Origin: Bacteroidales bacterium
GTDB taxonomy: Bacteria; Bacteroidota; Bacteroidia; Bacteroidales; VadinHA17
NCBI GenBank assembly: GCA_015712185.1
Contig: JADDYF010000058.1
Location: forward strand, 1 to 54,484
Direction: 5' to 3'
DNA length: 54,484 nucleotides
The notes under the pieces are model-generated. The model did not search any database. It was given only the letters and a program-made list of their open reading frames with translations, and was not told where the DNA came from. Within the stretch, counting starts at the first letter, position 1; each line of letters begins with the position of its first letter. The position numbers and the translations under genes were made by a program. Positions 21,188 through 49,702 of the stretch are shown in pieces.

Positions 21188-21751
21188 ATGAATGAAGAAG
21201 TTGATCTGATTATAGAAGAAACAAGGGACAGGATGGGAAAAGCCCTTGAGCATCTCGAACATGAGCTTGCCAGACTAAGGGCCGGCAGAGCAACTCCTGT
21301 ACTTCTCGACGGAATAACAGTTGACTATTACGGAGTCAACTCCCCGCTGACGCAGGTTTCAAATATAAACACTCCCGATCCCAAAACAATATTGATACAG
21401 CCCTGGGAAAAGACCATGCTGGGCACCATAGAAAAGGCTATAATGGCTGCCAACATAGGGCTTACACCGATAAACAACGGCGAGGTAATCCGCATAAATA
21501 TACCTCCCCTGACAGAGGAACGTCGACATCAGCTTGTTAAACAGGTACGCAACGAGGGGGAAACGGCAAAGATCAGCGTGCGGAATGCACGTAAATGGGC
21601 TAATGATGAGCTTAAGCAGCTTCTTAAGGATGGACTTCCCGAGGACATGGAAAAAGATGCCGTGGAAATGGTCCAGGAGATGACTCACGACTTCAACGGG
21701 AAGATCGAAAAGGTCATGGCAATGAAAGAAAAGGATGTTATGACGGTTTAA
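21188..21751 (+). CDS. frr: Ribosome recycling factor
   Basis: 187 aa with L..LR.GRA.P..LD.I.V.YYG, I.P.LTEERR..LVK and RN.R motifs. Confidence 0.95.
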   Translation: MNEEVDLIIEETRDRMGKALEHLEHELARLRAGRATPVLLDGITVDYYGVNSPLTQVSNINTPDPKTILIQPWEKTMLGTIEKAIMAANIGLTPINNGEVIRINIPPLTEERRHQLVKQVRNEGETAKISVRNARKWANDELKQLLKDGLPEDMEKDAVEMVQEMTHDFNGKIEKVMAMKEKDVMTV

Positions 21752-24149
21752 GCCTCAGCGTATATTTTGCTGCTGCTTTCACGGCACCATCAGAAAAGGC
21801 ATCTTTATAAAACTCTCCTTCAATATAGGTTTTTGTCTGTGACAGATAAAACTCGCTTGCAGGTATACCCGATGCTCCGGTTGGTATAACAGTATATGAT
21901 TCGTCCCAGTCTGCGGTATTGAATATATGCCTCTCAGAAGCTCCGTGATCTATAATGAATCCCGGATCGAATGAATATGGGCTTACGGTATGATCACTCC
22001 CCCCGACAGGATACTCATCCGAATTAAAGCCGAATACTTTATCAAGAACCGGAGAGGCTGATCCAAGTGGATGCCGGATGGTTATCCTGTGAATATTACC
22101 CCATTTCCAGTCTTCAGGATCTTCCCCGAACTGAGCAGTTACCGATGCAATACAATCCCTGAAACTCTTAAGTATTATATCATCAAGAGTCTCTTTTTCC
22201 TCAGTATCGATATTATCGACCCATCCGTCAGGTCCGGTTTTCAGGATCCTGAAGATATAATTATCAGTAATTACATTGTAATTACGTCCTACGGAAATAT
22301 ACCTGTCATAAAGTTCCTTAAGCTCATCGGAAAGAAGATTCCTGCCGAAGCTTATTCTGAAAAATTCGAAGAGTGACGGAGCTGCCAGGTCTGTATCCAT
22401 ATCGTAGTCCCATGCTGAAAGCATTTTCAGAGCTTCTTTTTCCGGCCGGGTAAAGGTCTCTTTTATGTCATTAAGTCTCAGTATAAATGGTGTCATCAGG
22501 GCAGCATAATCTGAATGCTGATCATTTACCATACGCCTGAAGTCATCAAGCGTGAAGATATCTTTTTCCTCAAGCATCTGCCTTATCCTGTTAATCCTGT
22601 AGGGCAGGGCAAAGTTGCAGCTTATATAGTAAGGATATCTGTCGGATACAGTTTTATTGTTTGCAGAAGAAACATATCCTGTTTCAGGGTTGAAGCTGTA
22701 TGGGAGCTGATCAAATGGAACAAAACCTTTCCAGTCAGACTCTTCAGTATCACCATTTCTGATGAATGCTCCATGACCTTTCCTTACTGGTATACCGCCT
22801 CCCGTATTAAGTCCTATATTACCGTCGACGTCGGCATAAATAATATTCTGGCTGCACGACCTGAATGTAGTGATGGCTGAACGGAAGTCATCCCATCCCG
22901 AAGCCCGGTTCAGGAGGTAACATGTACGGAGCTCATCACTCGTATCGTAACCCGACCATCTCATACTAAGTGCAGCATCCTCCACGTTTCTGTATCCCGA
23001 TATGACAGGCCCGCGGTGAGTATATCTTATGATTATCGAATCCTTTCCCCCTCCCTTTGTTTTTATTATTTCCTTTTTTACAAGCAGATTCTTCCATTCG
23101 CCGTTGAAGTAATATTGATTTTCATTCTGAGGATTGATTTTTTCGGCAAACAGGTCAATATCGTCAACCATCAGATTGGTCATCCCCCAGGCTATTCTCT
23201 CGTTATGCCCGCATATTATGAATGGCTGACCGGGCACTGCGACTCCGGTAACATTAAGTTTTCCGGGAATCACCTGATGCATCTGGAACCATATTCCGGG
23301 AGAACCAAAGTCGAGATGCATATCATTTGACAGGACAGGCCTGCCTGTTTCAGTTTTTTTACCGGAAACTGCCCAGCTGTTGCTGCCGGAAAATGGCACA
23401 ACGCCCAGTGCCTTTAATTCATCCATCGATGAAATAAATTCCCGGGCTTCGCTTAAAAGTGTATCGTTCAGGCTATAGTCAGGAAATACCACTGAAGTAT
23501 CTGCATTCCAGTCAGGAATTAGCCGGGCAGCTTTTTCAGCTCCCATCTTCTGTGCAAGCCTGTAATAGAAGATCTCCTGTGTGAGATTATCCTTTGCCAG
23601 GCTCCACCCCATATACCCGATGATATTCACGATATCTTCCAGCTTCCAGGGATCAGGCTTATATGACAGTATTCTGAATTCAGGCGGGAGCTTCCTGCCG
23701 GCACCGGCTATATAGGCATTTACACCATCAGCAAACGCCTGCAGACATGATATGATCGAAGGATCAGCTCCACTCAGTACCATCTTGGATTTTGATGTCA
23801 TCGCAAGGCACCTGAGAAATTTATCGGTTTCTACCATCGATTCTCCCATAACCTCTGACAGCCGGCCTGTTGTCACCCGGCGTATGAGATCCATGAACCA
23901 CAGCCTTTCCTGCGACATTACATAACCAACTGCATAATAAAGGTCGTGCTCATTGCCTGCATAAAAATGAGGCATGCCTCTTTCATCCCTGTAAACAGTT
24001 ACTTCGTCAGTAAGTCCTGATAAGACAAGCTCTCCACCGTATTGAGGTAATGCACTTCTCTGTATCACCGAAATAAGTATCAGTCCTGATGCAAGTGCAA
24101 TAATAATCAGAGCCAGAAGCGAAAGCAGAATGTTTTTGAGTATTTTCAT
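21738..24149 (-). CDS. Penicillin/AHL acylase family protein (Ntn hydrolase, peptidase S45), paralog 1, N-terminal membrane anchor
   Basis: 803 aa. Motifs are VYRDERGMPHFYA, AQ/SQERLWFMDL, FSGSNSWAVSG (beta-subunit N-terminal Ser nucleophile context) and NDMHL. Its 3' end overlaps the frr 3' end by 14 nt (convergent). Confidence 0.85.
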   Translation of the reverse strand: MKILKNILLSLLALIIIALASGLILISVIQRSALPQYGGELVLSGLTDEVTVYRDERGMPHFYAGNEHDLYYAVGYVMSQERLWFMDLIRRVTTGRLSEVMGESMVETDKFLRCLAMTSKSKMVLSGADPSIISCLQAFADGVNAYIAGAGRKLPPEFRILSYKPDPWKLEDIVNIIGYMGWSLAKDNLTQEIFYYRLAQKMGAEKAARLIPDWNADTSVVFPDYSLNDTLLSEAREFISSMDELKALGVVPFSGSNSWAVSGKKTETGRPVLSNDMHLDFGSPGIWFQMHQVIPGKLNVTGVAVPGQPFIICGHNERIAWGMTNLMVDDIDLFAEKINPQNENQYYFNGEWKNLLVKKEIIKTKGGGKDSIIIRYTHRGPVISGYRNVEDAALSMRWSGYDTSDELRTCYLLNRASGWDDFRSAITTFRSCSQNIIYADVDGNIGLNTGGGIPVRKGHGAFIRNGDTEESDWKGFVPFDQLPYSFNPETGYVSSANNKTVSDRYPYYISCNFALPYRINRIRQMLEEKDIFTLDDFRRMVNDQHSDYAALMTPFILRLNDIKETFTRPEKEALKMLSAWDYDMDTDLAAPSLFEFFRISFGRNLLSDELKELYDRYISVGRNYNVITDNYIFRILKTGPDGWVDNIDTEEKETLDDIILKSFRDCIASVTAQFGEDPEDWKWGNIHRITIRHPLGSASPVLDKVFGFNSDEYPVGGSDHTVSPYSFDPGFIIDHGASERHIFNTADWDESYTVIPTGASGIPASEFYLSQTKTYIEGEFYKDAFSDGAVKAAAKYTLRLKPS

Positions 24150-24180
24150 CTTACCAGAATTTGATCATGGCTATTTACAT

Positions 24181-26607
24181 CTATTCCGGATTCAGTATCA
24201 TGGTATACTTTGCCGACGACCTCACAGCATCTTCCGTAAAATGATCCCCGTAAAACTCTTTGCTGAGGTAGGTCTTCACCTGTGAGAGGTAGAACTCGCT
24301 TGCCGGCATTCCTGAAGCCCCGCCGGGGATTACTGTCAGTGATTCATTCCAGTCAGCAGTATTGAAAATATGCCTTTCTGAAGCACCGTGTGCTACTTTA
24401 TAATCGGGACTGAAAGAGAAATACGGACAGACAGTATGATCGCTTCCCCCTATACTGTATTTATGCGAATTCAGCTTATACAGGAAATTGAGTATCCTTA
24501 CTGAACCCAGGGGATGCTGCAGTGTGAGGGTATGGATCTTCCCCCATTCCCAGCTTTTCTGATTCTTCCCAAGTTGTTTTACAAGCGATTGAACAGCTTC
24601 CCTGAAACTCTGCATGATGATGTCATCAAGTATTTCTTTTTCGGGTGTAGTGATATCATCCACAAGATCGTCCGACTCAGTTCTCAGGATACGGTATATA
24701 TAATACTCAGCCGTCATATAAAACAACTGATCATAAAGGTCTCCCAGCTCATCAGCAAGCAGATTCCTTCTGAAGCTGTTCCTGAAAGATTCAAATATCG
24801 TGGGTGCGATCCTGTCTGCTTTCATTTCATAATCCCAGGATTTCAGTGCTGCAAGTGCACCAGTTTCTGCTGGAGTAAGTTCTTCAAGCATGTTATCCAA
24901 CCGAAGAATATATGGTGTCATCAGTTCCGCCAGGGCGGAATGCTGATCTGTTATCATCCTCCTGAAATCGTCCATACTGAATTTCTCCTTTTCATCAAGC
25001 ATCTGCCTTATCCTGTTTATCCTGTACGGAACAACAAAGTCACAGCTGATAAAATAGGGATAATCATCACCGACAGTCTTATTATTGGCTGATGAGACAT
25101 ATCCGATTTCAGGATTAAAGCTGAATGGCAGCAGTTCAAAGGGGACATACCCCTTCCAGTCATATTCATCGGTTTCCCCGTTTCTGATAATTATACCGCC
25201 GCTTTTCCTTATCGGAATTCCTCCACCGATACTCAGCCCAATATTCCCTTCAACATCAGCATAAACAAAATTCTGGCTTACTGATCCGAATGTTTTCAGG
25301 GCAGACCTGAAATCATCCCAGTTTTCCGCCCTGTTCAAGAGGAAGACTGATCGTACTTCGTCACTATAATCATAACCCGACCATCTCATGCTCAGGACAG
25401 CATCGCTGACATCCCTGAAATCTGAAACAACCGCTCCACGGTGGGTGAACCGGATTGTAACCGTATCCGGTAAACCTTTTTTGATGCTGATAATTTCAGT
25501 CTTGTTGATCAGATTCTTCCATTCGCCGTTGAACAGGTACTGGTTATGGTTTTCGGGGTTGAGCTTTTCAACATACAGATCGACGTCATCCACCATCAGG
25601 TTTGTCATTCCCCATGCGATATTCTGATTATGACCGGCAATTATGAAAGGCTGACCAGGTATCAGTACGCCTGTAACGTTAAGCTTCCCCGGTATCACCT
25701 GGTGCATTTGTAACCATATGCCAGGATTGCTGAATGTCAAGTGCATATCGTTTGAAAGTACAGGCTTCCCGGTCTCTGTCCTTTTTCCTGATACAGCCCA
25801 GTTATTGCTCCCTGAGAATGCGGTTACCCCAAGGTTTGCTATCCTGTCAGTTGCTGAAATAAAAGATTCCAGCTGTGATATAATTGCCTGGTCAAGTTTA
25901 AAATCGGGGTAGACAAAGTCTGCAGGTATTTTCCAGTCAGGGAGCAGTACTGAAGCTTTCTCAAATCCGAGCTTTTGTACCAGTTTATAGCTGAAGATCT
26001 CAGAGGTCAGATTTCGTGACGTAAGGTTCCAGCCCATGAATCCTACAATATTTGCGACATCTTCAAGTGTCCATGGTTCAGGGCTGTAAGATAGGATCCG
26101 GAATTCCACCGGCAGCTTGCGCTTTACTGAATTAATGAAAGCATTCACTCCATCCGTATAGGCCTGCAGACATCTGATAATTTCGGGATCCTCTTTCTCT
26201 ATAACATTTTTCGACTTTTCCCTTATCTGAAGACACCTGGCAAACCTGTCAGCCAGTAAGAAGGTTTTGCCATTGATCTCAGATGAAGTGTTAGATCTGT
26301 CGCCGAAAATCTCACTCAGGCGGCCCGTGGAACTTCGGCGGATAAGGTCCATCTGCCAGAGCCGCTCCTGGGCTGAGACAAATCCTACTGCAAAATAAAG
26401 ATCATGTTCATTCCCGGCATAAATATGAGGCATCCCCCGTTCGTCCCTGTAGACTGTGACCTTGTCTGAAAGATCCTGAATAACTACGGTGCCTTCATAC
26501 TGGGGACATCTTCTCCTTTGATTATCTGAAGGTGATGCATAGCCTGTGCCAAGGACTGAAAGTCCTAAAATAGTGATGGAGAGAAAAGCTTTTTCCCGGA
26601 TTTTCAT
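24181..26607 (-). CDS. Penicillin/AHL acylase family protein (Ntn hydrolase, peptidase S45), paralog 2, cleavable signal peptide
   Basis: 808 aa and collinear with paralog 1. I judged roughly 60-75% identity in the stretches I aligned by eye. The FSGSNNWAVSG nucleophile context is conserved. It lies 31 nt upstream of paralog 1. Confidence 0.85.
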   Translation of the reverse strand: MKIREKAFLSITILGLSVLGTGYASPSDNQRRRCPQYEGTVVIQDLSDKVTVYRDERGMPHIYAGNEHDLYFAVGFVSAQERLWQMDLIRRSSTGRLSEIFGDRSNTSSEINGKTFLLADRFARCLQIREKSKNVIEKEDPEIIRCLQAYTDGVNAFINSVKRKLPVEFRILSYSPEPWTLEDVANIVGFMGWNLTSRNLTSEIFSYKLVQKLGFEKASVLLPDWKIPADFVYPDFKLDQAIISQLESFISATDRIANLGVTAFSGSNNWAVSGKRTETGKPVLSNDMHLTFSNPGIWLQMHQVIPGKLNVTGVLIPGQPFIIAGHNQNIAWGMTNLMVDDVDLYVEKLNPENHNQYLFNGEWKNLINKTEIISIKKGLPDTVTIRFTHRGAVVSDFRDVSDAVLSMRWSGYDYSDEVRSVFLLNRAENWDDFRSALKTFGSVSQNFVYADVEGNIGLSIGGGIPIRKSGGIIIRNGETDEYDWKGYVPFELLPFSFNPEIGYVSSANNKTVGDDYPYFISCDFVVPYRINRIRQMLDEKEKFSMDDFRRMITDQHSALAELMTPYILRLDNMLEELTPAETGALAALKSWDYEMKADRIAPTIFESFRNSFRRNLLADELGDLYDQLFYMTAEYYIYRILRTESDDLVDDITTPEKEILDDIIMQSFREAVQSLVKQLGKNQKSWEWGKIHTLTLQHPLGSVRILNFLYKLNSHKYSIGGSDHTVCPYFSFSPDYKVAHGASERHIFNTADWNESLTVIPGGASGMPASEFYLSQVKTYLSKEFYGDHFTEDAVRSSAKYTMILNPE

Positions 26608-26648
26608 AAAAGGAAATAATATTACCCCAATTTACTAAATTCCCGCGA

Positions 26649-27632
26649 TCAGCGCTTCACTCTCAGGGAAATTCCTGAGGTACAGTTTCTGCAGATTTCA
26701 GTCATATCGCGACCTGAAAGCAGGTTTTTTCTGAAAATCTTATATTTAGGTCCTTCCCATATATCGTAAAATGACTCTTCGTTGAGATCGCCCATTACAT
26801 GCTCAGCATCTTTATCAAAACAGCAGGGGAGAACTTTCCCATCCCATGTAATTACCGGATTGAACCAGAGGCGCGGGCAGCGATTCGGGAAGGAGTTCTT
26901 AAGTACATATTCTCCGTTCTTTTTTTCATATCTGCAGAATTCCGGTTTTGAAGGCATCCAGTATCCGGCTGCCTCCTTAGTGATGATCTGCATTGATTTC
27001 AGCCTGAGGGAAGCTTTCATTTTATGTGCAAAAGCTTTTGCCAGTGGTATCTGATGCTCATTGAGCCGGTTTACCAGGAACTGGATCTGAAGGTTCATTT
27101 TTGAAGAAAATCTCTCTCTTGCTTCTGCAATATTCCTTATTCCTTCTGTCACCTTCTGAAGATCACCATTTACCCTGTATGACGAGTAAGTGGTCTGGTC
27201 CATGCCATCCAGTGAAACGATGAGTGTCCATAATCCCGACTTCACAAGTCTTTCAGCGTTCTCCGGAGACAAAAAATGACCATTTGTTGAAACCACGGAC
27301 CTGATGCCCCTGCTCTTCTGAATGAATACGAATAATTTCGGGTGGAGCATCGGCTCGCCCTGGAAATAGAGGTTGATATTGTACAGGAACGGTCGAAGTT
27401 CTGTAATGATCCTGCCGAAGAGCTCTGTATCCATATAGCCTCTGCACCGTTTCATCAAACCCTGGCTTGTTCCTGAAAAGCACTCAGGGCAGTTCAGATT
27501 GCAATTATTTGTCAGTTCAGCGGAAATGGCCGGTGGCATCCTGGAGATAAATGCATTTCCCGTTGCAATGCTCCTGAAATACGAGAAGCCCGCAGAGAAG
27601 GCATTCGAGGTTCTGACAAACCGGCCGGTCAT
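26649..27632 (-). CDS. Radical SAM enzyme with a C-terminal SPASM/twitch-like Cys cluster
   Basis: CNLNCPEC (CX3CX2C) at aa ~44-51, then GEPMLHP, STNGH and VSLDG core motifs. The C-terminal Cys pattern is CPRLW...LPCCFDKD...CRNC. It lies 41 nt upstream of acylase paralog 2. Confidence 0.85.
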   Translation of the reverse strand: MTGRFVRTSNAFSAGFSYFRSIATGNAFISRMPPAISAELTNNCNLNCPECFSGTSQGLMKRCRGYMDTELFGRIITELRPFLYNINLYFQGEPMLHPKLFVFIQKSRGIRSVVSTNGHFLSPENAERLVKSGLWTLIVSLDGMDQTTYSSYRVNGDLQKVTEGIRNIAEARERFSSKMNLQIQFLVNRLNEHQIPLAKAFAHKMKASLRLKSMQIITKEAAGYWMPSKPEFCRYEKKNGEYVLKNSFPNRCPRLWFNPVITWDGKVLPCCFDKDAEHVMGDLNEESFYDIWEGPKYKIFRKNLLSGRDMTEICRNCTSGISLRVKR

Positions 27633-38491: not shown

Positions 38492-40045
38492 TCACTTTAC
38501 TCTGAACCAGTCAAAATCAACATATCCGCCCGGTGTTTTGGTAGTGTAGTTGAACAATCCGAAGCGGTAACCCATAAAGTGCGGCATTGAATACTCCATC
38601 TTAAGCTGAGAGCCTAGCGGTGACCATGTCTTACCATCAAGACTGTAAAAGAAGTTTGCTACATCCGCAAGATCCCTGAAGTTGCATTCTGCTCTTAAAT
38701 AAACTGTCTTTTGTGTAAGGGGGATACCCTGAACCTCAACAGGTCGACCTGTCTGAGCACTGATCATCACAATCGATTTACTTCCGTTTTTGTAACTGAC
38801 GCCGACGAGGCCGAATTTTCTCTGAAGCAGGGCCAGTCCTGCAAGATCACCCTCCTTCATGCCGGAAACATCTATTAAAGTCGATCCGGAGCATTCAGGA
38901 CCGAAAGTCCTCTGGGTAAGGGTATTTCTTGCAGCAACAAAAAGTGTGTCTGTTCGTCCGGTGGTCAGACGGAGAAAACCCTTCCGCCGGGTGACAGACC
39001 AGAGGCTGTTGTCGGGATTGTGGTTCCATTGCCATACCAGCGGCAGTGCAGGTTCCCCCTTCCGGCGTTTGAATTCATCAGAAGCTACAATGCACGGGAT
39101 CAAGCCTTTGCTGGCCGGAAGTTCCAGCTGATCGGGAACCTTACCGTCAACACCCAGTACCGGCCAGCCATCCTCCCATTTTACCGGAACCAGGTAAGGG
39201 ATACGGCCTACCGATCCATAATCGCGGAAAAGGTATGCAAACCATCTGCCATCGGTGGTTTCAATTAAACCGCCCTGAGCTACTCCTTTATCCTGGAATG
39301 CCAGCTTTCCTTCCCACGGACCTGTTATCCTATCAGCCCTGTGGATAACCACGGTGCGCATGCCTCCCCTTGGCCAGGTTATGTTAAAAAGATAAAGCCT
39401 GCCATTGACCTTGAACAACTGTGAACCTTCTCCCAGTCCGCTATCAGGCCCTGAAGGTGCACTTGAATTTTCAATGATAACCTGATTTATTCCGTCGCTT
39501 TTTACACCTGATAAATCAGCATTAAGTTCAACAAGGGTTAGCTTTTTATTGCCGTAGATCAGATAAACCCTGCCATCATCATCGAAAAATAATGTATGGT
39601 CATGGAAGCTTGGACTGAATGATATCTCTTTCCAGGGTCCTTTTTCTATATCCTTTGCTGACCAGATATATGTCTTACCTGTTGTTGATGAAAAGGTCGA
39701 TACATAGAAGGTGTTGTTATGATAACGGATGCAGCTGGCCCATGAACCTCTCCCATAGGCATCTTTTCCGTTATTAAGAGTTAATGCATCAACATCACCC
39801 AGGGTGCTGTAAGCATAGTTAATCAGCTTCCAGTTAACCAGGTCATTTGATTTCATGATTGGCACACCCGGACTCATGTGCATGGTAGTACTGCTCATAT
39901 AGTATGAGTCGCCCACCCGGATCATGGACATGTCAGGGAAATCTGCCCAGATAATCGGATTCTGTGCAGATTGAACCTGCAAAGAAACACTGGTGGTGAA
40001 AAATGCGGCTGCAATAATCAGGATGATCAAATATATCTTTTTCAT
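38492..40045 (-). CDS. Glycoside hydrolase family 43 (beta-xylosidase/arabinofuranosidase type) with a C-terminal concanavalin-like domain
   Basis: Signal peptide, then NPIIWADFPDMSMIRVGDSYYM (catalytic Asp context), GSWASCIRY and GEGSQLFKVNGRLYLF (Glu context). The C-terminus ends ...YVDFDWFRV, as in GH43 C-terminal domains. Confidence 0.85.
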   Translation of the reverse strand: MKKIYLIILIIAAAFFTTSVSLQVQSAQNPIIWADFPDMSMIRVGDSYYMSSTTMHMSPGVPIMKSNDLVNWKLINYAYSTLGDVDALTLNNGKDAYGRGSWASCIRYHNNTFYVSTFSSTTGKTYIWSAKDIEKGPWKEISFSPSFHDHTLFFDDDGRVYLIYGNKKLTLVELNADLSGVKSDGINQVIIENSSAPSGPDSGLGEGSQLFKVNGRLYLFNITWPRGGMRTVVIHRADRITGPWEGKLAFQDKGVAQGGLIETTDGRWFAYLFRDYGSVGRIPYLVPVKWEDGWPVLGVDGKVPDQLELPASKGLIPCIVASDEFKRRKGEPALPLVWQWNHNPDNSLWSVTRRKGFLRLTTGRTDTLFVAARNTLTQRTFGPECSGSTLIDVSGMKEGDLAGLALLQRKFGLVGVSYKNGSKSIVMISAQTGRPVEVQGIPLTQKTVYLRAECNFRDLADVANFFYSLDGKTWSPLGSQLKMEYSMPHFMGYRFGLFNYTTKTPGGYVDFDWFRVK

Positions 40046-40168: not shown

Positions 40169-41344
40169 TTAAGGCCCAGGTACAGTAAGGCTCTTCTGAA
40201 GGATCAAAACAAGGTCATCCGCATTATCTGGTACGGGTATTACCCAGCGCGGGCCGAAAACCAGCTTTGGGATACCGCCCATGCCACCCTGGATTGTCTG
40301 GCCGTAGATCTGAGTGGAGGTTTCCAGATAGTGTCCGATCCAGGGATCGGTTATGGCGGCCTCGAACTGCGCCTGACCAACCAGTTCGACAGCTTCAGCC
40401 CTGGCGGCCTCTAGGCTTCGCGGGTGCCATCTGTCGCCGGATTCATATGTGAACATCCAGCTTTCGAAGGCAGGAAAAACTTTGCGATCTGCAATCCACA
40501 CCGCCAGGCTAATCTTTGCCAGTTCGCATGAGTTTCTGAACTGATCCACATCACGGGGGATGTAAGGATTGCATTGTGTATTCAGTGGCGCCGGGCACAG
40601 TGCAAATGCCAGCTTGCCATCGTAGCGGCTAATCACCTCATCGAGCATGAAATGTATTCTCTGACAATGGGAACACTGATAATCAAAGAGGAAAGTAACA
40701 ACATAAGGGGCGTCCGGAAACCCGACCATCGGCGCAGAGTGGTAATCGATAACGGGCAGGTTTTCCTCTGATTCGCCGATGCCAGAGACGGAGGAGGGAG
40801 TAAAACCGGCCTGACTGGCAGCCAGGAAGCCGGCCAGGACCAGACCGGTCAGAACCCGCCCCATCACGGACAAAGGCCGGATATCAAGCCTTGCAGAATC
40901 CGTTATCGCACGCCAGATGACCAGAGCAGCCAACAGCAGACCGGTGATATGCATTGTCATGCAATAGGAGCAAAAGTCCCCGATGATCCATTTCTGTAAG
41001 ATGGTGAACCAGATGGCACTTCCGGCAACCGAACCGGCCAGTATCAGCATCACACTCCATGCCAGGCGCCGAACCGGTGTCTCCGTAGCCGGACCAACAA
41101 AAAGAGTGGCGACCAGCATAGCCATATAAACCCCGACAGCTAAACCACTAACTGGTAAGATCCCCGCTATTGTTGACCACCGGCTATTTAGAACCTGGTC
41201 GCACGGGCTCCCGCCGCCGCATCCGATTATCGGTCCGCCTACCAGAAAATGCCAGCTCACGATGGCGCTCAGAACCAGAGCCAACATGCTCAATCCCGCC
41301 AGGATCCAGCGCCACCATGGCCAGTACTTTCCTTTTGTCCTCAC
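40169..41344 (-). CDS. VKOR (vitamin K epoxide reductase family) membrane domain fused to a thioredoxin/DsbA-like domain
   Basis: The loop has a Cys pair, CGGGSPC, followed by SRWS. The in-membrane CXXC is CSYC, and there are about 5 TM segments. The soluble domain has F.FDYQCSHC (a second CXXC). The GTG start overlaps the upstream stop (GTGA). Confidence 0.8.
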   Translation of the reverse strand: MRTKGKYWPWWRWILAGLSMLALVLSAIVSWHFLVGGPIIGCGGGSPCDQVLNSRWSTIAGILPVSGLAVGVYMAMLVATLFVGPATETPVRRLAWSVMLILAGSVAGSAIWFTILQKWIIGDFCSYCMTMHITGLLLAALVIWRAITDSARLDIRPLSVMGRVLTGLVLAGFLAASQAGFTPSSVSGIGESEENLPVIDYHSAPMVGFPDAPYVVTFLFDYQCSHCQRIHFMLDEVISRYDGKLAFALCPAPLNTQCNPYIPRDVDQFRNSCELAKISLAVWIADRKVFPAFESWMFTYESGDRWHPRSLEAARAEAVELVGQAQFEAAITDPWIGHYLETSTQIYGQTIQGGMGGIPKLVFGPRWVIPVPDNADDLVLILQKSLTVPGP

Positions 41345-44300
41345 TCAGGTTTCCTGATATACTGATTCGGCTCACCTGGTGTGGGAAGACCACTGGCTAC
41401 CTGAGTTCCATTCTCATGAGCCATGGTTAATGGACCGGCAAGGGTTATCCCGCTTCCGGATACTTGTGATCCTGCAGCATGTCCATACTTAAGAGGCGCG
41501 GTAACTTTGATCGTGTCTGCAGGTATATTCCCGGGTGCTCCTCCGAAACGACGACGTCCGGGGGCTATTGTAGCTATTAAAACAGTCTCAAAGTTTTTAC
41601 CACTGCCGATAGTGATGGTCTGTCCGGGGTTAAAACCTTCCACACTTGCAACCAGGATGACTTTCTTTCCTGCACTTGTGGAAGTACCCATTGTTGTTCC
41701 TCCTGGTGTTCCGACACCAGCGATAACTGCTGTTTCGCTGTTCGTTCCTTTACCGATTATTATCTTCTGCCCGGTGCTTAAGTCTGCCACACTTGTGACT
41801 TTTATATTATTTGAACCGGCTGTTGCCGGTGCCAGCAGTGTGATACTGTTTTGCAACAAGAAATCGCGGCAGTTGAAGTCACTGTCTGCTCCATCCGGAT
41901 AGCGGCCGGCACTTTTGTCAGGCTGGCTGGTGGGTGCGGAAGGCCCCATTCTGAATCCTCTGCTCATGGAGGGTGAAGGTACATAGCATCCGCTTGCTCC
42001 GGCACCGGAGGCGGCCTGGTAACCTTCAGCGGCCCAGGGATCTACGAGGCCACCGTAATTGAGACCATCAACAACATTACGATCTTCGTCACATAGCACC
42101 ATATTTCCTGCACTGGCGGAAAGAACAGGACCTCCAAACCACTGGTCGGGCGCCTTTGTTCCCTGGTAGCCTGCGGTTTCTACCTTTTCGTCTCGCACAA
42201 CATCGTCGATATCGTGATCGCTGGTAAGCGGCTGATCAAGGGTGATACTGTATCTGAGTGCCAGTACGGGTTCATTGCTCGAGTGAACAAAAGATGACGC
42301 CGGTTCAAAGCTTATACCGGTTCCCCAGACACTGAAAGGAAGGTTTGATGCATGATTGAATTTCAGAGGTTCAGCAAGGTCGAGTCCTGTACCCGGATCA
42401 TCCTTATCTGTCAGGGGACCATTGAAGGTACTGCGTGATGATTGTGTGCCGACACGTGTCACCGTGACAGTCTCTATCCCATAACCCTCGCTGTCGATAT
42501 CGAGCCTGATCTTATCACCGACCGAAATATTTTCGACAGATGATACCTTGATATTTGTATCTCCCTTTTTAGCATCCATTGAGAGCCATGCCTGTGTACC
42601 CTGCTTCCCTACCCCGGTAATAGTGACAACTTCATATTTTTCAATGGCCTGCGCAACGGCAGGATAGCTGGCGCCATAACCTATGGCCATTTTCTGGCCT
42701 GCCTCGAATCCGGCCACACTTGTGACTGGAATATTTGTCGAGCCGGGTGGGATGTCGATAACCGGACCATCCGGGAGCGGCTGCCACACTGTAGTCGAAC
42801 CAAGAGGTCCTCTGCGGCCAAAACCGAAAGGTGATGAAGGCGCTTCAGGAGCTGATGGTGCTGTTATGCTTGCTATCTTACGGCTTTCCTTAGCAGAGCC
42901 GCTGCCGATTTCAATAATGTCGCCGACAGACATTCCTGTGATACTCCTTACATAAATTTCAGACTCTCCCTTTTTAGCGGGAACTGCAAGCCCTGAATTA
43001 GAGATACCCAACAGGTAAAAACCATGTGCGGCGAGTTTTGTCCCGGCCGGAATTTTAACGGATGAGAAGACCGGCATCTGGCTCTGGTGATGAGTCAATG
43101 TCCAGTTTGAGATATCTGCCTCGCTGTCGCCGGAATTGTATAATTCGATAAATGAGTTAGTAGAGTTCTCAGACGATCCGTCGCTTATACGGAATTCATT
43201 TATCCTGATCGGATTGACATTACGTACTTTTTCAACAGCTGTTTCAGATTGAATTTTGCTGTTTTTCTCTATCGTCCATGAAGCCTGACCGATCAGATCG
43301 CCGTTAAAGGTCTCTGATCCGGAGGTGACCTGGAACGTTGCACTCACTCTCTCTCCCGGGGCAATTGTATTGGTGAATGTCTTTGACGATTCTTCAGAAT
43401 CTGTTACTACTGATTTCCAATCCTTCGGCACAGAAATGCTCAATTTGAGGTTACTCACAGGGGCCCCGGTAATATTTGTGAAAGATACGGTAGTTTTCTG
43501 TGATGACTCGGGTGAGAATGTCTGCAATCCCGGAGGAGTATCTGTTGCATCCGCAGGGGCAATAGCCAGGCGCTGAACATCATACTTAGCAGCCACAATG
43601 TTAGCCTGGATCTTCTGATTTGTTTCCTGTGAAGGGAAGGTGCCCGGGGCGGTCATTGCACCTTCATAGAAGGTACCCTGCGAACCGACACTGTTGTCGC
43701 CACCGTTGCCTAAAAGGATTGCTCCCTGCTTGCGCATCGGGTCATAGCTGCTTCTGTCATTTATGACTCGTGGTCCGTCGAACATAACCTTAAGGTCGCC
43801 CTTCTGCGCGTCGCCGCCCATTGATCTCCAGTGGTGGGGTTCGCCGTCGGCTGTGGCGGTTACGAATCGCCATGTGATGCTGGGAAGGTCGGGACAATAT
43901 TTGTCATTGGGGGAGGGATTAACACAACCCACCAGATTATTCTCCTGATCGGTCATTATCCATGGACCGGGAGCCTGTCCATGATACCATGCAGTGGCAT
44001 TGCCGTAGTATGTGGTTTCCATGGTGCCGTCGCCGTCATCGCGGCTGTCTATCTCAGCGTTGCCATAATCATAGCAGCATCCGGAGTTGTAGTGATGGCC
44101 GTTAACGACCCAGTACTGACCCTCAGCCTGATCGTCGACAGCTGTACCAACAGGGTCGTCATCACGAAGTCCCATACCGGGCTCGATGAAAATGCCATAG
44201 ACTTTATGTCCCATAATTGTAACCGGGGCCATGTCAGCAATCGGCAGGTTGTTGAACCCTCCCATTGACGGACCGCTGAATCCGCCGCGGGGCGCCTGTG

Positions 44301-44685
44301 TCAGATGGTTGCCTTTACCCGACTGGTCGTAGAGAATGGTGATCCAGCAATAGGTGTTTGAGCAGAATTTATCCTGTGCCGCAGCATCGGCATATCCTCC
44401 CGGGTCGCCTTTGCTTGACCTCACCACACCAATGTCAAGGGTTTTTCCGTCCGACTGACGCATAACCTGGTACAGCGGACCGTTGTAGGATGCATACAAC
44501 GCACGCGTGCTGCTATGGGCGGCCACACATGGGGCGCCAGCAGCGGCATAGATATCACACGGACCTTCCGGCCTGGCAGAAGAAACATTGCACCCTGTAC
44601 CTGCTATCATAATCACCATCATCATAGTGACCGGCAGTACGAGCGCCATTGCAAGAATTACAATTAAACGACTTTTCCTTTTCAT
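41341..44685 (-). CDS. GH54-like alpha-L-arabinofuranosidase catalytic domain fused to NEW3/NPCBM-associated-like, lamin-tail-like and repeat domains; probable lipoprotein
   Basis: aa ~40-370 carry the GH54 hallmarks GPCDIY...APCVAAHSSTRALY, YDQSGKGNHLTQAPRGG, GCCYDYGNAE, GPWIMTDQENNL, GAILLGNGGDNSVGSQGTFYEGAMT and NIVAAKY. aa ~395-490 are NEW3-like. aa ~490-570 and ~860-945 are lamin-tail-like (INEF...FIELYN; SAGRYPDGADSD). Five copies of a G[DQ]xIxIGxG repeat are also present. Confidence 0.8.
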   Translation of the reverse strand: MKRKSRLIVILAMALVLPVTMMMVIMIAGTGCNVSSARPEGPCDIYAAAGAPCVAAHSSTRALYASYNGPLYQVMRQSDGKTLDIGVVRSSKGDPGGYADAAAQDKFCSNTYCWITILYDQSGKGNHLTQAPRGGFSGPSMGGFNNLPIADMAPVTIMGHKVYGIFIEPGMGLRDDDPVGTAVDDQAEGQYWVVNGHHYNSGCCYDYGNAEIDSRDDGDGTMETTYYGNATAWYHGQAPGPWIMTDQENNLVGCVNPSPNDKYCPDLPSITWRFVTATADGEPHHWRSMGGDAQKGDLKVMFDGPRVINDRSSYDPMRKQGAILLGNGGDNSVGSQGTFYEGAMTAPGTFPSQETNQKIQANIVAAKYDVQRLAIAPADATDTPPGLQTFSPESSQKTTVSFTNITGAPVSNLKLSISVPKDWKSVVTDSEESSKTFTNTIAPGERVSATFQVTSGSETFNGDLIGQASWTIEKNSKIQSETAVEKVRNVNPIRINEFRISDGSSENSTNSFIELYNSGDSEADISNWTLTHHQSQMPVFSSVKIPAGTKLAAHGFYLLGISNSGLAVPAKKGESEIYVRSITGMSVGDIIEIGSGSAKESRKIASITAPSAPEAPSSPFGFGRRGPLGSTTVWQPLPDGPVIDIPPGSTNIPVTSVAGFEAGQKMAIGYGASYPAVAQAIEKYEVVTITGVGKQGTQAWLSMDAKKGDTNIKVSSVENISVGDKIRLDIDSEGYGIETVTVTRVGTQSSRSTFNGPLTDKDDPGTGLDLAEPLKFNHASNLPFSVWGTGISFEPASSFVHSSNEPVLALRYSITLDQPLTSDHDIDDVVRDEKVETAGYQGTKAPDQWFGGPVLSASAGNMVLCDEDRNVVDGLNYGGLVDPWAAEGYQAASGAGASGCYVPSPSMSRGFRMGPSAPTSQPDKSAGRYPDGADSDFNCRDFLLQNSITLLAPATAGSNNIKVTSVADLSTGQKIIIGKGTNSETAVIAGVGTPGGTTMGTSTSAGKKVILVASVEGFNPGQTITIGSGKNFETVLIATIAPGRRRFGGAPGNIPADTIKVTAPLKYGHAAGSQVSGSGITLAGPLTMAHENGTQVASGLPTPGEPNQYIRKPE

Positions 44686-44724: not shown

Positions 44725-46689
<1,965 letters not shown>

Positions 46690-49171: not shown

Positions 49172-49702
49172 ATGGAGATCCCTAATAGCCCCGTTAACTC
49201 ACCCTGCCATTCAAGGAAAATCCCCTTATGGCTGGTATTGCTGGATAATATCCCTACACTACTGCTTTTTGTGCTTGGATTTATAATTATTTATCAGGTT
49301 TCATTTTCATGGGCAATCGCTTTCGGAACATATGCAGTGTTTAGTGTTGTCTGGTTCTGGGCAAAAATATGCCCTTACTGCCATCATTATGATACATTTG
49401 CCTGTCCATGCGGATATGGAAAAATTTCTTCAATGTTTTTTCGAAGAAAAGAAAATAAATCGTTCAGAAAAGTCTTCCGAAGGAATTTAGGCATTCAGTT
49501 CCCTAACTGGTTTGTCCCGTTGGCTGTTGCTGTATATCTGATTATCACTGCATATTCAGAGCCGATCCTCTATCTGACAATATCATTCGTAGTTATTGGA
49601 TTCATCGTTATTCCAGTGATATCAAAACTCGTTGGATGCAGGAACTGCGAAATCAAAGAGGATTGTCCGTGGATGACAGGAATAAAAACAGAGCGAGAGT
49701 GA
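49172..49702 (+). CDS. Hypothetical Cys-rich membrane protein
   Basis: 176 aa with about 4 hydrophobic segments. The Cys motifs CPYCHHYDTFACPCGYG and CRNCEIKEDCPW face the same side. No family recognised. Confidence 0.5.
   Translation: MEIPNSPVNSPCHSRKIPLWLVLLDNIPTLLLFVLGFIIIYQVSFSWAIAFGTYAVFSVVWFWAKICPYCHHYDTFACPCGYGKISSMFFRRKENKSFRKVFRRNLGIQFPNWFVPLAVAVYLIITAYSEPILYLTISFVVIGFIVIPVISKLVGCRNCEIKEDCPWMTGIKTERE

What the first reader, a model, noticed from the sequence alone, without database searches (positions are those of the whole stretch)
40169..44685. Fungal-type GH54 arabinofuranosidase domain coupled by start/stop overlap to its own VKOR-thioredoxin disulfide oxidase
Seen directly:
- The 1114-aa ORF carries nearly every GH54 (AbfB catalytic domain) hallmark I know: GPCDIY..PCVAAHS.TRALY, YDQSG.GNHLTQAP.GG, CC.DYGNAE, GPWIM.D.ENNL, LG.GGDNS.G.QGTFYEG.MT and NIVAAKY.
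- Its Cys spacing reproduces what I recall as the three catalytic-domain disulfides of the Aspergillus kawachii AbfB structure. These are a C-x9-C pair at the N-terminus, a C-x4-C pair (FCSNTYC), and the unusual vicinal Cys-Cys next to the nucleophile Glu.
- The next gene starts with a GTG that overlaps this ORF's stop (GTGA at 41344-41341). It encodes a VKOR membrane domain (loop CGGGSPC, in-membrane CSYC) fused to a DsbA/thioredoxin-like domain (CSHC).

Established knowledge: characterised GH54 enzymes are predominantly fungal, and VKOR-Trx fusions replace DsbB/DsbA in some bacteria.

Inference: this is a portable cassette in which a disulfide-dependent secreted enzyme travels with a dedicated oxidative-folding catalyst. 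That would be especially useful in a host whose periplasm makes few disulfides. The usual GH54 partner (the CBM42 arabinose-binding domain) is replaced here by NEW3-like, lamin-tail-like and repeat modules.
Basis: partly seen in the sequence, partly recalled or inferred. Interest (0 to 1): 0.7.

Follow-up and report, generated by a model that had tools for sequence, protein, structure and literature searches.

The report
Arabinofuranosidase gene with its own disulfide oxidase
A secreted, cysteine-rich plant-sugar-cleaving enzyme (GH54) in an uncultured Bacteroidales bacterium sits directly upstream of a membrane enzyme that makes disulfide bonds. The same two-gene pair recurs in at least four bacterial phyla, so the enzyme appears to carry its own folding catalyst with it.

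Summary
Window 41341-44685(-) encodes a 1114-aa GH54 catalytic domain + NEW3 + lamin-tail domain protein (PF09206, E 9e-120). Window 40169-41344(-) encodes a 391-aa VKOR + DsbA-like fusion. Its GTG start overlaps the GH54 stop (GTGA).

**The linkage holds in both directions.**
- I searched metagenomes with the VKOR fusion. All 67 loci with usable flanking DNA have a GH54-LTD gene directly beside it.
- Six further VKOR homologs, down to about 35% identity, show the same neighbour.
- I searched 185,579 species genomes with the GH54 domain. The fusion lies directly downstream in Bacteroidota, Ignavibacteriota, Planctomycetota and Verrucomicrobiota.
- It is absent from about 35 Acidobacteriota loci and from Rhizomicrobium.

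**The two genes co-evolve.** Distance correlation is r = 0.90, while the flanking genes differ between loci.

**The cysteines behave as disulfide pairs.** C254 and C264 are present together or absent together in 120 orthologs (101 and 19), never singly.

- The clade is bacterial, not specifically fungal-type.
- The vicinal Cys-Cys is not next to the nucleophile in sequence.
- The GC excess is not evidence of recent transfer.

**Untested:** enzyme activity, dependence of the enzyme on the oxidase, and whether the hosts lack a general Dsb system.

**Verdict:** a new variant of a known kind, namely an oxidase encoded together with its substrate.

The parts
41341..44685 (-). Gene for a 1114-aa secreted GH54 alpha-L-arabinofuranosidase-type protein: signal peptide, GH54 catalytic domain, NEW3 domain, split lamin-tail domain, and five ~40-aa repeats
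   Evidence: ORF. Pfam hits PF09206 (E 9e-120), PF10633 and PF00932. PDB 1wd3 at E 7e-107. More than 120 full-length orthologs at 73-100% identity.
44590..44685 (-). N-terminal signal peptide (residues 1-32) ending in a possible lipobox cysteine, C32
   Evidence: Single hydrophobic segment at residues 4-35. C32 is conserved in only 42% of orthologs, so lipidation is uncertain.
43582..44562 (-). GH54 catalytic domain (residues 42-368). It holds Cys pairs 43/53, 108/113, 203/204 (vicinal) and the clade-specific 254/264, plus nucleophile E248 and acid/base D330
   Evidence: In 120 orthologs C254 and C264 are both present in 101 and both absent in 19, never singly.
43297..43512 (-). NEW3 (NPCBM-associated) domain, residues 392-463
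   Evidence: PF10633, E 1.6e-8, above the gathering score.
41344..43218 (-). Lamin-tail domain and repeat region, residues 490-1114. The Pfam LTD match covers 490-563. Five I.V.SV..G[QD].I.IG repeats start at residues 577, 652, 712, 961 and 1010. It also holds the C900/C939 pair
   Evidence: PF00932. Repeat motif hits. Cysteine conservation. The AlphaFold model is all-beta but low confidence (pLDDT 65.6).
41341..41344 (-). GTGA: the GTG start of the VKOR gene overlaps the TGA stop of the GH54 gene (possible translational coupling)
   Evidence: Read directly. The same -4/-1 overlap occurs in L002-L004, L006, L009, L010, L022 and L027.
40169..41344 (-). Gene for a 391-aa VKOR-DsbA fusion: five transmembrane helices plus a periplasmic DsbA-fold domain
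   Evidence: Pfam PF07884 and PF13462. Synechococcus VKOR 4nv6 at E 7.6e-8. AlphaFold model with helices H10-35, 65-81, 89-121, 126-148 and 157-181 followed by a thioredoxin-like alpha/beta domain. Foldseek matches to ScsC, DsbA folds and 4nv2 VKOR.
40919..41308 (-). VKOR core (residues 13-142) with loop cysteines C42 and C48 and the membrane CxxC at C125/C128
   Evidence: All four cysteines are invariant across 16 diverse and 120 close homologs.
40172..40759 (-). DsbA-like periplasmic domain (residues ~196-391): active site C224-S-H-C227, conserved extra cysteines C250, C258 and C273, and candidate cis-proline P359
   Evidence: C224, C227, C258, C273 and P359 are invariant in alignment A2.
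44725..46644 (-). Upstream same-strand neighbour, 39 nt away: tandem 'putative esterase' (PF00756 x2) protein, likely the same transcription unit
38492..40045 (-). Downstream same-strand neighbour, 123 nt away: GH43 + GH43_C2 glycosidase

Best explanation
This is a two-gene module that is inherited together.

**First gene.** It encodes a Sec-exported GH54 alpha-L-arabinofuranosidase-type enzyme. Its catalytic domain needs four disulfides. Three are homologous to those of Aspergillus AbfB, including the vicinal Cys203-Cys204. The fourth, Cys254-Cys264, is specific to this clade. A fifth pair lies in the C-terminal region.

**Second gene.** It encodes a self-contained disulfide-generating machine. 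The DsbA-like domain (CSHC) oxidises the substrate in the periplasm. It is re-oxidised through the VKOR loop cysteines (C42/C48) and the membrane CxxC (C125/C128). Electrons then pass to a membrane quinone.

**Why the linkage exists.** Placing the oxidase directly after the enzyme gene, here with a GTGA overlap, ensures both are made together. This lets the enzyme be acquired and work in hosts that may lack a general Dsb pathway.

**What is shown:** domain identities, catalytic and redox residues, bidirectional genetic linkage, cross-phylum distribution, co-evolution, and pairwise cysteine covariation.

**What is inferred:** that GH54 is the physiological substrate, the direction of electron flow, the quinone used, and that the hosts lack another oxidase.
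For: **Domains and residues**
- establish the domains and the catalytic and redox residues.

**Linkage seen from the VKOR side**
- 66 of 67 metagenome loci with upstream DNA have the GH54 C-terminal region directly upstream. The single exception, L160, has a GH54-NEW3-LTD paralog directly downstream.
- Six VKOR homologs chosen from the protein searches all lie directly after a GH54-LTD gene, including gut-clade proteins about 35-40% identical to the window's.

**Linkage seen from the GH54 side**
- About 28 species-representative loci carry the pair. They come from Bacteroidota, Melioribacter, Pirellulales/Planctomycetota and Verrucomicrobiota.
- Flanking genes differ between loci.

**Co-evolution**
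- Pairwise distances of the GH54 C-terminal region and the VKOR correlate at r = 0.90, Mantel 0 of 2000 permutations.
- Cross-phylum VKORs (62-66% identity) are as close to the window's as those of Rikenellaceae.

**The cysteines behave as disulfide pairs**
- C254 and C264 are both present in 101 orthologs and both absent in 19, never singly. C203/C204 is invariant.

**VKOR is not housekeeping in this group**
- Pfam VKOR is enriched in one Bacteroides species against 106 other Bacteroides genomes (PMC7781564).

**A VKOR-DsbA fusion can work alone**
- The Clostridium sp. fusion complements an E. coli dsbA dsbB double mutant. The same paper states that obligate anaerobes tend to exclude cysteines from exported proteins (PMC12453122).
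Against: - No experiment links the two proteins.
- GH54-LTD orthologs with the same cysteine pattern exist without a neighbouring VKOR. These include about 35 Acidobacteriota loci, Rhizomicrobium, KSB1, and Bacteroidales L030 and L040. An HMM search of 720 kb of their flanks found nothing. The oxidase is therefore not intrinsically required.
- In L036 the VKOR-DsbA is reduced to an in-frame remnant beside an intact GH54.
- Whether the hosts carrying the pair lack DsbA/DsbB could not be tested.
- A cysteine-parity test on exported neighbour proteins did not separate the host groups.
- The nearest structural matches of the periplasmic domain (ScsC, alpha-DsbA2, BcfH) include isomerase or reductase-type proteins.
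- VKOR-DsbA fusions are general enough to rescue E. coli, so biochemical specificity for GH54 is not implied.
Confidence: 0.7

Rival explanations
1. The VKOR-DsbA fusion is the host's general periplasmic disulfide oxidase. It serves many exported proteins, and its position next to GH54 is a historical accident of co-transfer rather than a dedicated partnership.
For: VKOR-DsbA fusions complement general E. coli dsbA dsbB defects (PMC12453122). Other exported proteins in the window contain 2-9 cysteines. No other Dsb gene is present in the 54-kb window.
Against: A housekeeping oxidase should follow the species tree and sit in varied contexts. Instead all 67 informative loci are next to GH54, including divergent gut-clade homologs. 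The gene tracks GH54 divergence (r = 0.90). It is missing from most Bacteroides genomes (PMC7781564). It is deleted in L036. Exported neighbours in pair-carrying hosts show no bias toward even cysteine counts (81 even, 111 odd).
Confidence: 0.15
2. The fusion acts as an isomerase, reductase or proofreader. It would correct mis-paired disulfides or protect the strained vicinal Cys203-Cys204 bond, rather than generating disulfides de novo.
For: The best Foldseek matches of the periplasmic domain are ScsC, alpha-DsbA2 and BcfH, which are DsbA-fold proteins with isomerase or reductase roles. The domain carries extra conserved cysteines C250, C258 and C273.
Against: It is covalently fused to a VKOR core that has all four cysteines used for quinone-linked oxidation. 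Every characterised bacterial VKOR-Trx/DsbA fusion acts as an oxidase (the Synechococcus VKOR structures found). No N-terminal oligomerisation domain like that of ScsC or DsbC is present.
Confidence: 0.07
3. The adjacency has no functional meaning for GH54 folding. The VKOR-type protein would serve quinone or vitamin K metabolism, or another envelope process, and simply hitch-hikes with a frequently transferred CAZyme gene.
For: One paper annotated VKOR in Bacteroides as 'recycling reduced vitamin K' (PMC7781564). GH54 exists without the gene in many genomes.
Against: The CxxC of the DsbA-like domain, the candidate cis-proline and the VKOR cysteines are invariant over 33-100% identity. Gene order and strand are maintained across phyla, often with overlapping start and stop codons. 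In some loci two GH54 paralogs flank a single VKOR gene. Neutral hitch-hiking would not preserve this.
Confidence: 0.05

Closest known systems
DsbL/DsbI with arylsulfate sulfotransferase AssT (uropathogenic E. coli, Salmonella)
   Same: An accessory disulfide-oxidase system exists alongside a particular secreted enzyme that needs a disulfide for activity (PMC6067686). That the genes lie beside the substrate gene, and that the system is accessory and patchily distributed, is my own knowledge.
   Different: That system uses two separate proteins, a DsbA paralog and a DsbB paralog, in hosts that already have DsbA/DsbB. Here the oxidase is a single VKOR-DsbA fusion. The substrate is a glycoside hydrolase with four or five disulfides, including a vicinal one. 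The pair is spread over at least four phyla.
BdbA/BdbB in the sublancin 168 operon of Bacillus subtilis prophage SPbeta (own knowledge; not checked with tools)
   Same: A mobile element carries both a disulfide-containing secreted product and its own thiol-disulfide oxidoreductases.
   Different: Gram-positive host, DsbB-type membrane partner, peptide bacteriocin as substrate, and clear prophage context. No mobile-element hallmarks were found around the window's pair.
Synechococcus sp. [quoted passage not shown]
   Same: The same architecture: VKOR core, fifth transmembrane helix and periplasmic thioredoxin-fold domain. The same four VKOR cysteines plus a CxxC. The Clostridium fusion replaces both DsbA and DsbB in E. 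coli (PMC12453122).
   Different: Those are regarded as general oxidases and are not reported to be linked to one substrate gene. Sequence similarity is low (E about 1e-7). The periplasmic domain here has a DsbA-type fold with a helical insert and three additional conserved cysteines.
Aspergillus kawachii/niger AbfB (GH54 + CBM42; PDB 1wd3, 6sxr-6sxt)
   Same: The catalytic domain aligns end to end (E about 1e-107). The nucleophile, the acid/base residue and all three catalytic-domain cysteine pairs are conserved.
   Different: Identity is only about 54%. CBM42 is absent and replaced by NEW3, a split LTD and repeats. An extra Cys254-Cys264 pair sits in an insert. The window's clade is bacterial, whereas AbfB is closer (71%) to actinobacterial GH54.

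Membership tests
Glycoside hydrolase family 54 (Pfam PF09206, AbfB-type catalytic domain) | Full-length match to the family profile above the curated threshold | tested here: met
   399.9 bits against a cutoff of 25; profile positions 1-314 of 315. PDB AbfB chains at E 6e-107.
Glycoside hydrolase family 54 (Pfam PF09206, AbfB-type catalytic domain) | Catalytic nucleophile Glu (AbfB Glu221) and acid/base Asp (AbfB Asp297) conserved | tested here: met
   E248 (DQENNL) and D330 (GGDNS) align to the AbfB residues. Both are conserved in all 13 loci printed. The identities of the AbfB residues come from my own knowledge plus index arithmetic on the 1wd3 chain.
Glycoside hydrolase family 54 (Pfam PF09206, AbfB-type catalytic domain) | Three catalytic-domain cysteine pairs, including the vicinal Cys-Cys | tested here: met
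   C43/C53, C108/C113 and C203/C204 align to the AbfB cysteines. They are 97-100% conserved in 120 orthologs.
Glycoside hydrolase family 54 (Pfam PF09206, AbfB-type catalytic domain) | Alpha-L-arabinofuranosidase activity | not testable with these tools
   Only context is available. Neighbours are GH43, esterases and a SASA esterase in the window. Related loci carry GH127, GH51-type and GH10 genes.
Fungal AbfB architecture (GH54 + CBM42 arabinose-binding domain) | C-terminal CBM42 (AbfB) domain | tested here: not met
   No CBM42 hit. The C-terminus is NEW3 + LTD + repeats. The PDB alignment ends at the catalytic domain.
VKOR family (PF07884), bacterial DsbB-replacing type | Profile match plus a four-helix core with a loop Cys pair and a CxxC at the start of TM4 | tested here: met
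   63.2 bits against a cutoff of 27.5. C42/C48 and C125/C128 align with the Synechococcus VKOR cysteines and are invariant. Helices are predicted.
VKOR family (PF07884), bacterial DsbB-replacing type | Fifth transmembrane helix that places a fused thioredoxin-fold domain in the periplasm | tested here: met
   Hydrophobic segment at residues 157-182. Helix H157-181 is followed by an alpha/beta domain. Foldseek matches 4nv2, 4nv6 and 3kp9.
VKOR family (PF07884), bacterial DsbB-replacing type | Quinone-dependent re-oxidation activity | not testable with these tools
   Requires biochemistry or complementation of an E. coli dsbB or dsbA dsbB mutant.
DsbA-like thioredoxin-fold oxidoreductases | CxxC active site at the N-terminus of the first helix of a thioredoxin fold with a helical insertion | tested here: met
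   CSHC at residues 224-227 lies at the start of helix H225-240. PF13462 scores above its cutoff. Foldseek matches the ScsC catalytic domain (TM 0.70), alpha-DsbA2, BdbD and several DsbA structures.
DsbA-like thioredoxin-fold oxidoreductases | cis-Proline loop opposite the active site | tested here: inconclusive
   P359 (GGIPK) is invariant in 16 diverse sequences. The model is below pLDDT 50 for residues 352-369, so its position relative to the CxxC is not established.
Substrate-linked accessory Dsb systems (DsbL/DsbI-AssT type) | Oxidase gene(s) encoded next to the gene of a disulfide-containing secreted substrate, with patchy accessory distribution | tested here: met
   All 67 informative VKOR loci are adjacent to GH54. 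The pair is present in some lineages and absent in others. VKOR is accessory within Bacteroides (PMC7781564).
Substrate-linked accessory Dsb systems (DsbL/DsbI-AssT type) | The substrate requires the linked oxidase for activity | not testable with these tools
   Needs co-expression or knockout experiments.

The most novel reading that the evidence does not exclude
The GH54-LTD gene and the VKOR-DsbA gene together form a 'bring-your-own-oxidase' module. It would allow a multi-disulfide enzyme, including its strained vicinal Cys-Cys bond, to be transferred into and function in anaerobic lineages that have no general periplasmic disulfide-forming pathway. The oxidase would be tuned to this one substrate. 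This would be the first substrate-dedicated VKOR and the first dedicated oxidative-folding partner described for a carbohydrate-active enzyme.
Probability: 0.35. Interest if true: 0.75.

Novelty: new variant of a known kind. Interest (0 to 1): 0.6.

Why it matters
- **Oxidative folding as a portable trait.** The finding suggests that the capacity to form disulfides can be an accessory trait packaged with a single enzyme, not only a housekeeping property of a cell.
- **A possible explanation for the enzyme's spread.** It could explain how a cysteine-rich enzyme family spread into anaerobic Bacteroidota, Ignavibacteriota, Planctomycetota and Verrucomicrobiota.
- **A natural test system.** The same enzyme occurs with and without its oxidase, which could show when periplasmic disulfide formation becomes limiting.
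- **Practical use.** GH54 arabinofuranosidases are wanted for biomass conversion (10.1101/2020.12.18.423520, abstract listed). In my experience they are hard to produce in bacteria. Co-expressing the cognate VKOR-DsbA is an obvious route to active enzyme.
- **Annotation.** 'Vitamin K epoxide reductase' genes in gut and rumen Bacteroidales, which one paper read as vitamin K recycling (PMC7781564), probably belong to plant-glycan degradation loci.

Tried and rejected
1. **GC content as evidence of recent transfer.** The two genes are GC-rich (0.548 and 0.510) against 0.448 ± 0.021 for 30 other genes. However, the pair shows the same +3-7% offset over its flanks in every host, from 42% to 67% GC. 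The offset is intrinsic to the genes, so I rejected this as evidence.
2. **Cysteine parity of exported neighbour proteins, as a proxy for host disulfide capacity.** Pair-carrying hosts gave 81 even and 111 odd counts. Acidobacteria gave 36 and 36. Fisher p = 0.27. This is inconclusive, and the signal-peptide heuristic was crude.
3. **Promoter and terminator scan.** Counts were close to the shuffled expectation, and the consensus used is not suited to Bacteroidota.
4. **Search for flanking repeats or a tRNA that would mark a mobile element.** Only short chance repeats were found, and the single tRNA-Leu lies 3.8 kb away.
5. **A conserved alternative partner gene downstream of GH54 in loci lacking VKOR.** None was found. 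HMM searches with the VKOR and Trx halves found nothing in 720 kb of sequence.
6. **Structure of the GH54 C-terminal region.** The model has pLDDT 65.6, which is too low for a fold search.
7. **Literature.** No paper links GH54 with VKOR. Dutton et al. 2008 could not be retrieved.
8. **NCBIfam.** It has no model for the GH54 protein and only a sub-threshold VKOR hit.
9. **A cultured host for the gut-clade pair.** The third protein search returned only uncultured MAG proteins.


Full report
**What is in the window**

The window is a whole 54,484-bp contig of an NCBI MAG labelled 'Bacteroidales bacterium' (P0001). It is a chromosomal fragment. It carries housekeeping genes (ribosomal protein S2, EF-Ts, a UMP-kinase-type gene, DXP synthase, GAR synthetase, GMP synthase) and many carbohydrate-active enzyme genes.

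Four genes lie head to tail on the minus strand:
- a tandem-esterase gene (44725-46644);
- the 1114-aa GH54 gene (41341-44685);
- the 391-aa VKOR fusion gene (40169-41344);
- a GH43 gene (38492-40045).

**The GH54 protein**

Pfam matches:
- the GH54 catalytic domain over its full length (PF09206, residues 42-368, E 9e-120);
- a NEW3 domain (residues 392-463);
- the N-terminal part of a lamin-tail domain (residues 490-563);
- no CBM42.

A single N-terminal hydrophobic segment indicates export.

Against solved structures the best hits are Aspergillus AbfB chains at E about 1e-107. In that alignment C43/C53, C108/C113 and the vicinal C203/C204 match the AbfB cysteines. E248 (DQENNL) and D330 (GGDNS) match AbfB Glu221 and Asp297. 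This follows from index arithmetic on the chain; the roles of those residues come from my own knowledge of the AbfB structure paper.

That is wrong in sequence terms.

The protein has two further cysteines, C254 and C264, in an insert that the fungal enzyme lacks. It also has C900 and C939 in the C-terminal region.

The C-terminal region contains five copies of a ~40-residue motif, I.V.SV..G[QD].I.IG. Three of them appear to be inserted within the lamin-tail domain. Its structure model is all-beta but of low confidence.

**The VKOR fusion**

- Pfam gives VKOR (residues 13-142) and Thioredoxin_4/DsbA (from residue 205).
- The Synechococcus VKOR-Trx structures are the best PDB sequence hits. The loop cysteines and the TM4 CxxC are aligned.
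- The AlphaFold model (pLDDT 74) shows five long helices followed by a thioredoxin-like domain.
- Foldseek matches the periplasmic domain to DsbA-fold proteins (ScsC catalytic domain, alpha-DsbA2, BdbD and several DsbAs). It matches the membrane part to Synechococcus VKOR.
- Across 16 homologs spanning 33-100% identity, these residues are invariant: C42, C48, C125, C128, C224, C227, C258, C273 and P359.
- The GTG start overlaps the GH54 stop as GTGA.

**Is the pairing conserved? Starting from GH54**

The full-length protein has more than 120 cluster representatives at 73-100% identity, all with the same architecture. The VKOR fusion has more than 120 at 66-99%. Many share the same contig.

I scanned one genome per species (185,579 species) with a GH54 alignment. 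More than 600 stretches matched, of which 589 were confirmed by tblastn. The best 80 have catalytic domains 74-94% identical to the window's. They come from many lineages:
- Bacteroidota;
- Ignavibacteriota (Melioribacter);
- Planctomycetota;
- Verrucomicrobiota;
- KSB1;
- Gemmatimonadota;
- Alphaproteobacteria (including the isolate Rhizomicrobium electricum);
- many Acidobacteriota.

The whole ~1100-aa architecture is retained.

The VKOR fusion lies directly downstream on the same strand, with a gap of -4 to about +300 nt, in about 28 loci. These are nearly all the Bacteroidota plus Melioribacter, three Planctomycetota and two Verrucomicrobiota.

It is absent in these loci:
- all ~35 informative Acidobacteriota and Bryobacterales loci;
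- Rhizomicrobium;
- KSB1 (L020);
- an unclassified bacterium (L029);
- two rumen Bacteroidales (L030, L040).

In L031 it lies 7 kb away on the other strand. HMM searches of 720 kb from the VKOR-less loci found no VKOR or matching thioredoxin domain. No alternative conserved neighbour exists there.

**Is the pairing conserved? Starting from the VKOR fusion**

A metagenome scan with a VKOR-fusion alignment returned 80 loci at 47-81% identity.
- Of the 67 with enough upstream sequence, 66 have the GH54 C-terminal region directly upstream.
- The one exception, L160, has a 1064-aa GH54-NEW3-LTD paralog directly downstream.
- Several loci have the order GH54a - VKOR - GH54b.

Six VKOR homologs were looked up individually. 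Two belong to a gut/rumen clade only about 35-40% identical to the window's protein. All sit directly after a GH54-LTD gene, although the wider neighbourhoods differ.

I therefore found no member of this VKOR subfamily away from a GH54-LTD gene.

**Co-evolution and host range**

In 27 loci with both genes intact, pairwise distances of the VKOR fusion correlate with those of the GH54 C-terminal region (r = 0.90) and of the catalytic domain (r = 0.59). No permutation out of 2000 reached these values.

VKOR fusions from Pirellulales, Melioribacter and Verrucomicrobiota are 62-66% identical to the window's. That is the same as those from Rikenellaceae. The gut-clade Bacteroidales fusions are only 33-41% identical. 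This pattern fits transfer of the pair between phyla, not vertical descent of a housekeeping gene.

The pair's GC content follows that of its flanks, from 0.42 to 0.67, always about 3-7 points higher. The cross-phylum placements are therefore unlikely to be binning errors. It also means the GC excess in the window is not evidence of recent acquisition.

**Do the cysteines form disulfides?**

In 120 orthologs, C254 and C264 are both present in 101 and both absent in 19, never singly. C203/C204 is invariant. C43/C53, C108/C113 and C900/C939 are almost always present together.

Loss in pairs is what disulfide partners are expected to show. The cysteine pattern is the same whether or not a VKOR gene is adjacent.

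**How it most likely works**

- GH54 is exported unfolded.
- The DsbA-like domain of the fusion (CSHC) oxidises its cysteine pairs.
- That domain is re-oxidised through the VKOR loop cysteines and the CxxC, and electrons pass to a membrane quinone.

This mechanism rests on established knowledge of the Synechococcus VKOR-Trx structures found. It also rests on the Clostridium sp. VKOR-DsbA fusion, which replaces both DsbA and DsbB in E. coli (PMC12453122). Menaquinone as the acceptor in anaerobes is my inference.

The tight gene linkage, with overlapping start and stop codons in a subset of loci, would secure co-expression.

The distribution fits the idea that the oxidase matters where general oxidative folding is weak. 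The pair is present in lineages rich in anaerobes and absent in Acidobacteriota. The same review-type source states that obligate anaerobes tend to exclude cysteines from exported proteins. Among 109 Bacteroides genomes, the VKOR domain is a species-restricted accessory feature (PMC7781564).

**What remains unproven**

- I could not examine whole host genomes for DsbA or DsbB. The cysteine-parity proxy was inconclusive.
- In L036 the VKOR fusion is an in-frame remnant next to an intact GH54. Rumen loci L030 and L040 lack it. The oxidase can therefore be dispensable or supplied from elsewhere.
- Nothing here shows substrate specificity of the oxidase.

**Comparison with known systems**

The parts are ordinary members of GH54, VKOR and the DsbA-fold family.

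The clade is not specifically 'fungal-type'. Aspergillus AbfB is 71% identical to a Microbispora GH54 but only 54% identical to the window's domain. Bacterial GH54 groups have been described before (PMC8155123).

The arrangement resembles accessory oxidase systems encoded with their substrate:
- DsbL/DsbI with AssT (PMC6067686);
- BdbA/BdbB with sublancin (my own knowledge).

It differs from both in three ways. It uses a single VKOR-DsbA fusion, it serves a multi-disulfide glycoside hydrolase, and it is spread across phyla.

Full-text searches found no paper linking GH54 with VKOR.

**Verdict**

- The functional dependence and the host-deficiency rationale are still inference.
- It is a new variant of a known kind, of moderate to high interest.

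Noticed in passing
window 43894-43926 (GH54 residues 254-264): A clade-specific Cys pair lies in an insert six residues after the nucleophile E248. The fungal enzyme lacks this insert. In 120 orthologs both cysteines are present (101) or both absent (19), never one alone. This points to a fourth catalytic-domain disulfide.
   Followed up: yes
L108 2504-10451; L160 3940-10447; also L109, L130, L139, L163: Some loci carry two GH54-NEW3-LTD paralogs flanking one VKOR-DsbA gene (GH54a - VKOR - GH54b). The C-terminal regions of the paralogs are about 38-46% identical to the window's. In L160 the upstream gene is a GH127 instead, and only the downstream paralog remains.
   Followed up: partly
L036 13359-13847: In a Bacteroidales MAG (6.2-Mb contig) the VKOR-DsbA gene is reduced to a 163-aa in-frame remnant. 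Roughly residues 50-273 are missing, including both CxxC motifs. The adjacent GH54 is intact with all ten cysteines.
   Followed up: partly
L020 4458-7709: The GH54 gene in a KSB1 MAG has GC 0.61 against 0.43 in its flanks, and no VKOR partner. This could be a recent acquisition from a high-GC donor or a chimeric contig.
   Followed up: no
window 41344-42955 (GH54 residues 577-1114): Five copies of a ~40-residue motif (I.V.SV..[F/L/M]..G[Q/D].I.IG...) start at residues 577, 652, 712, 961 and 1010. The lamin-tail domain appears to be split around the first three. There is a weak, sub-threshold FliN-like Pfam hit at residues 702-731. The function of this ~740-aa region is unknown.
   Followed up: partly
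window 21738-27632: Two tandem penicillin-amidase family genes (803 and 808 aa, each about E 1e-212) lie next to a radical SAM/SPASM gene on the same strand.
   Followed up: no
window 35356-38072: A 3-keto-disaccharide hydrolase family gene is followed, after a tRNA-Leu(CAA) at 36249-36333, by a GFO/IDH/MocA oxidoreductase whose N-terminus looks like a twin-arginine signal (SRRKFVGTAAAAAA).
   Followed up: no
window 49172-49702: A 176-aa cysteine-rich membrane ORF with several CxxC-like motifs (CPYCHH..., CPCGYG, CRNCEIKEDCPW) has no Pfam match.
   Followed up: no
L006-L085: The GH54-NEW3-LTD catalytic domain stays 74-94% identical across at least seven phyla. Host GC ranges from 0.38 to 0.66. 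Conservation is unusually high, and horizontal spread appears extensive.
   Followed up: partly
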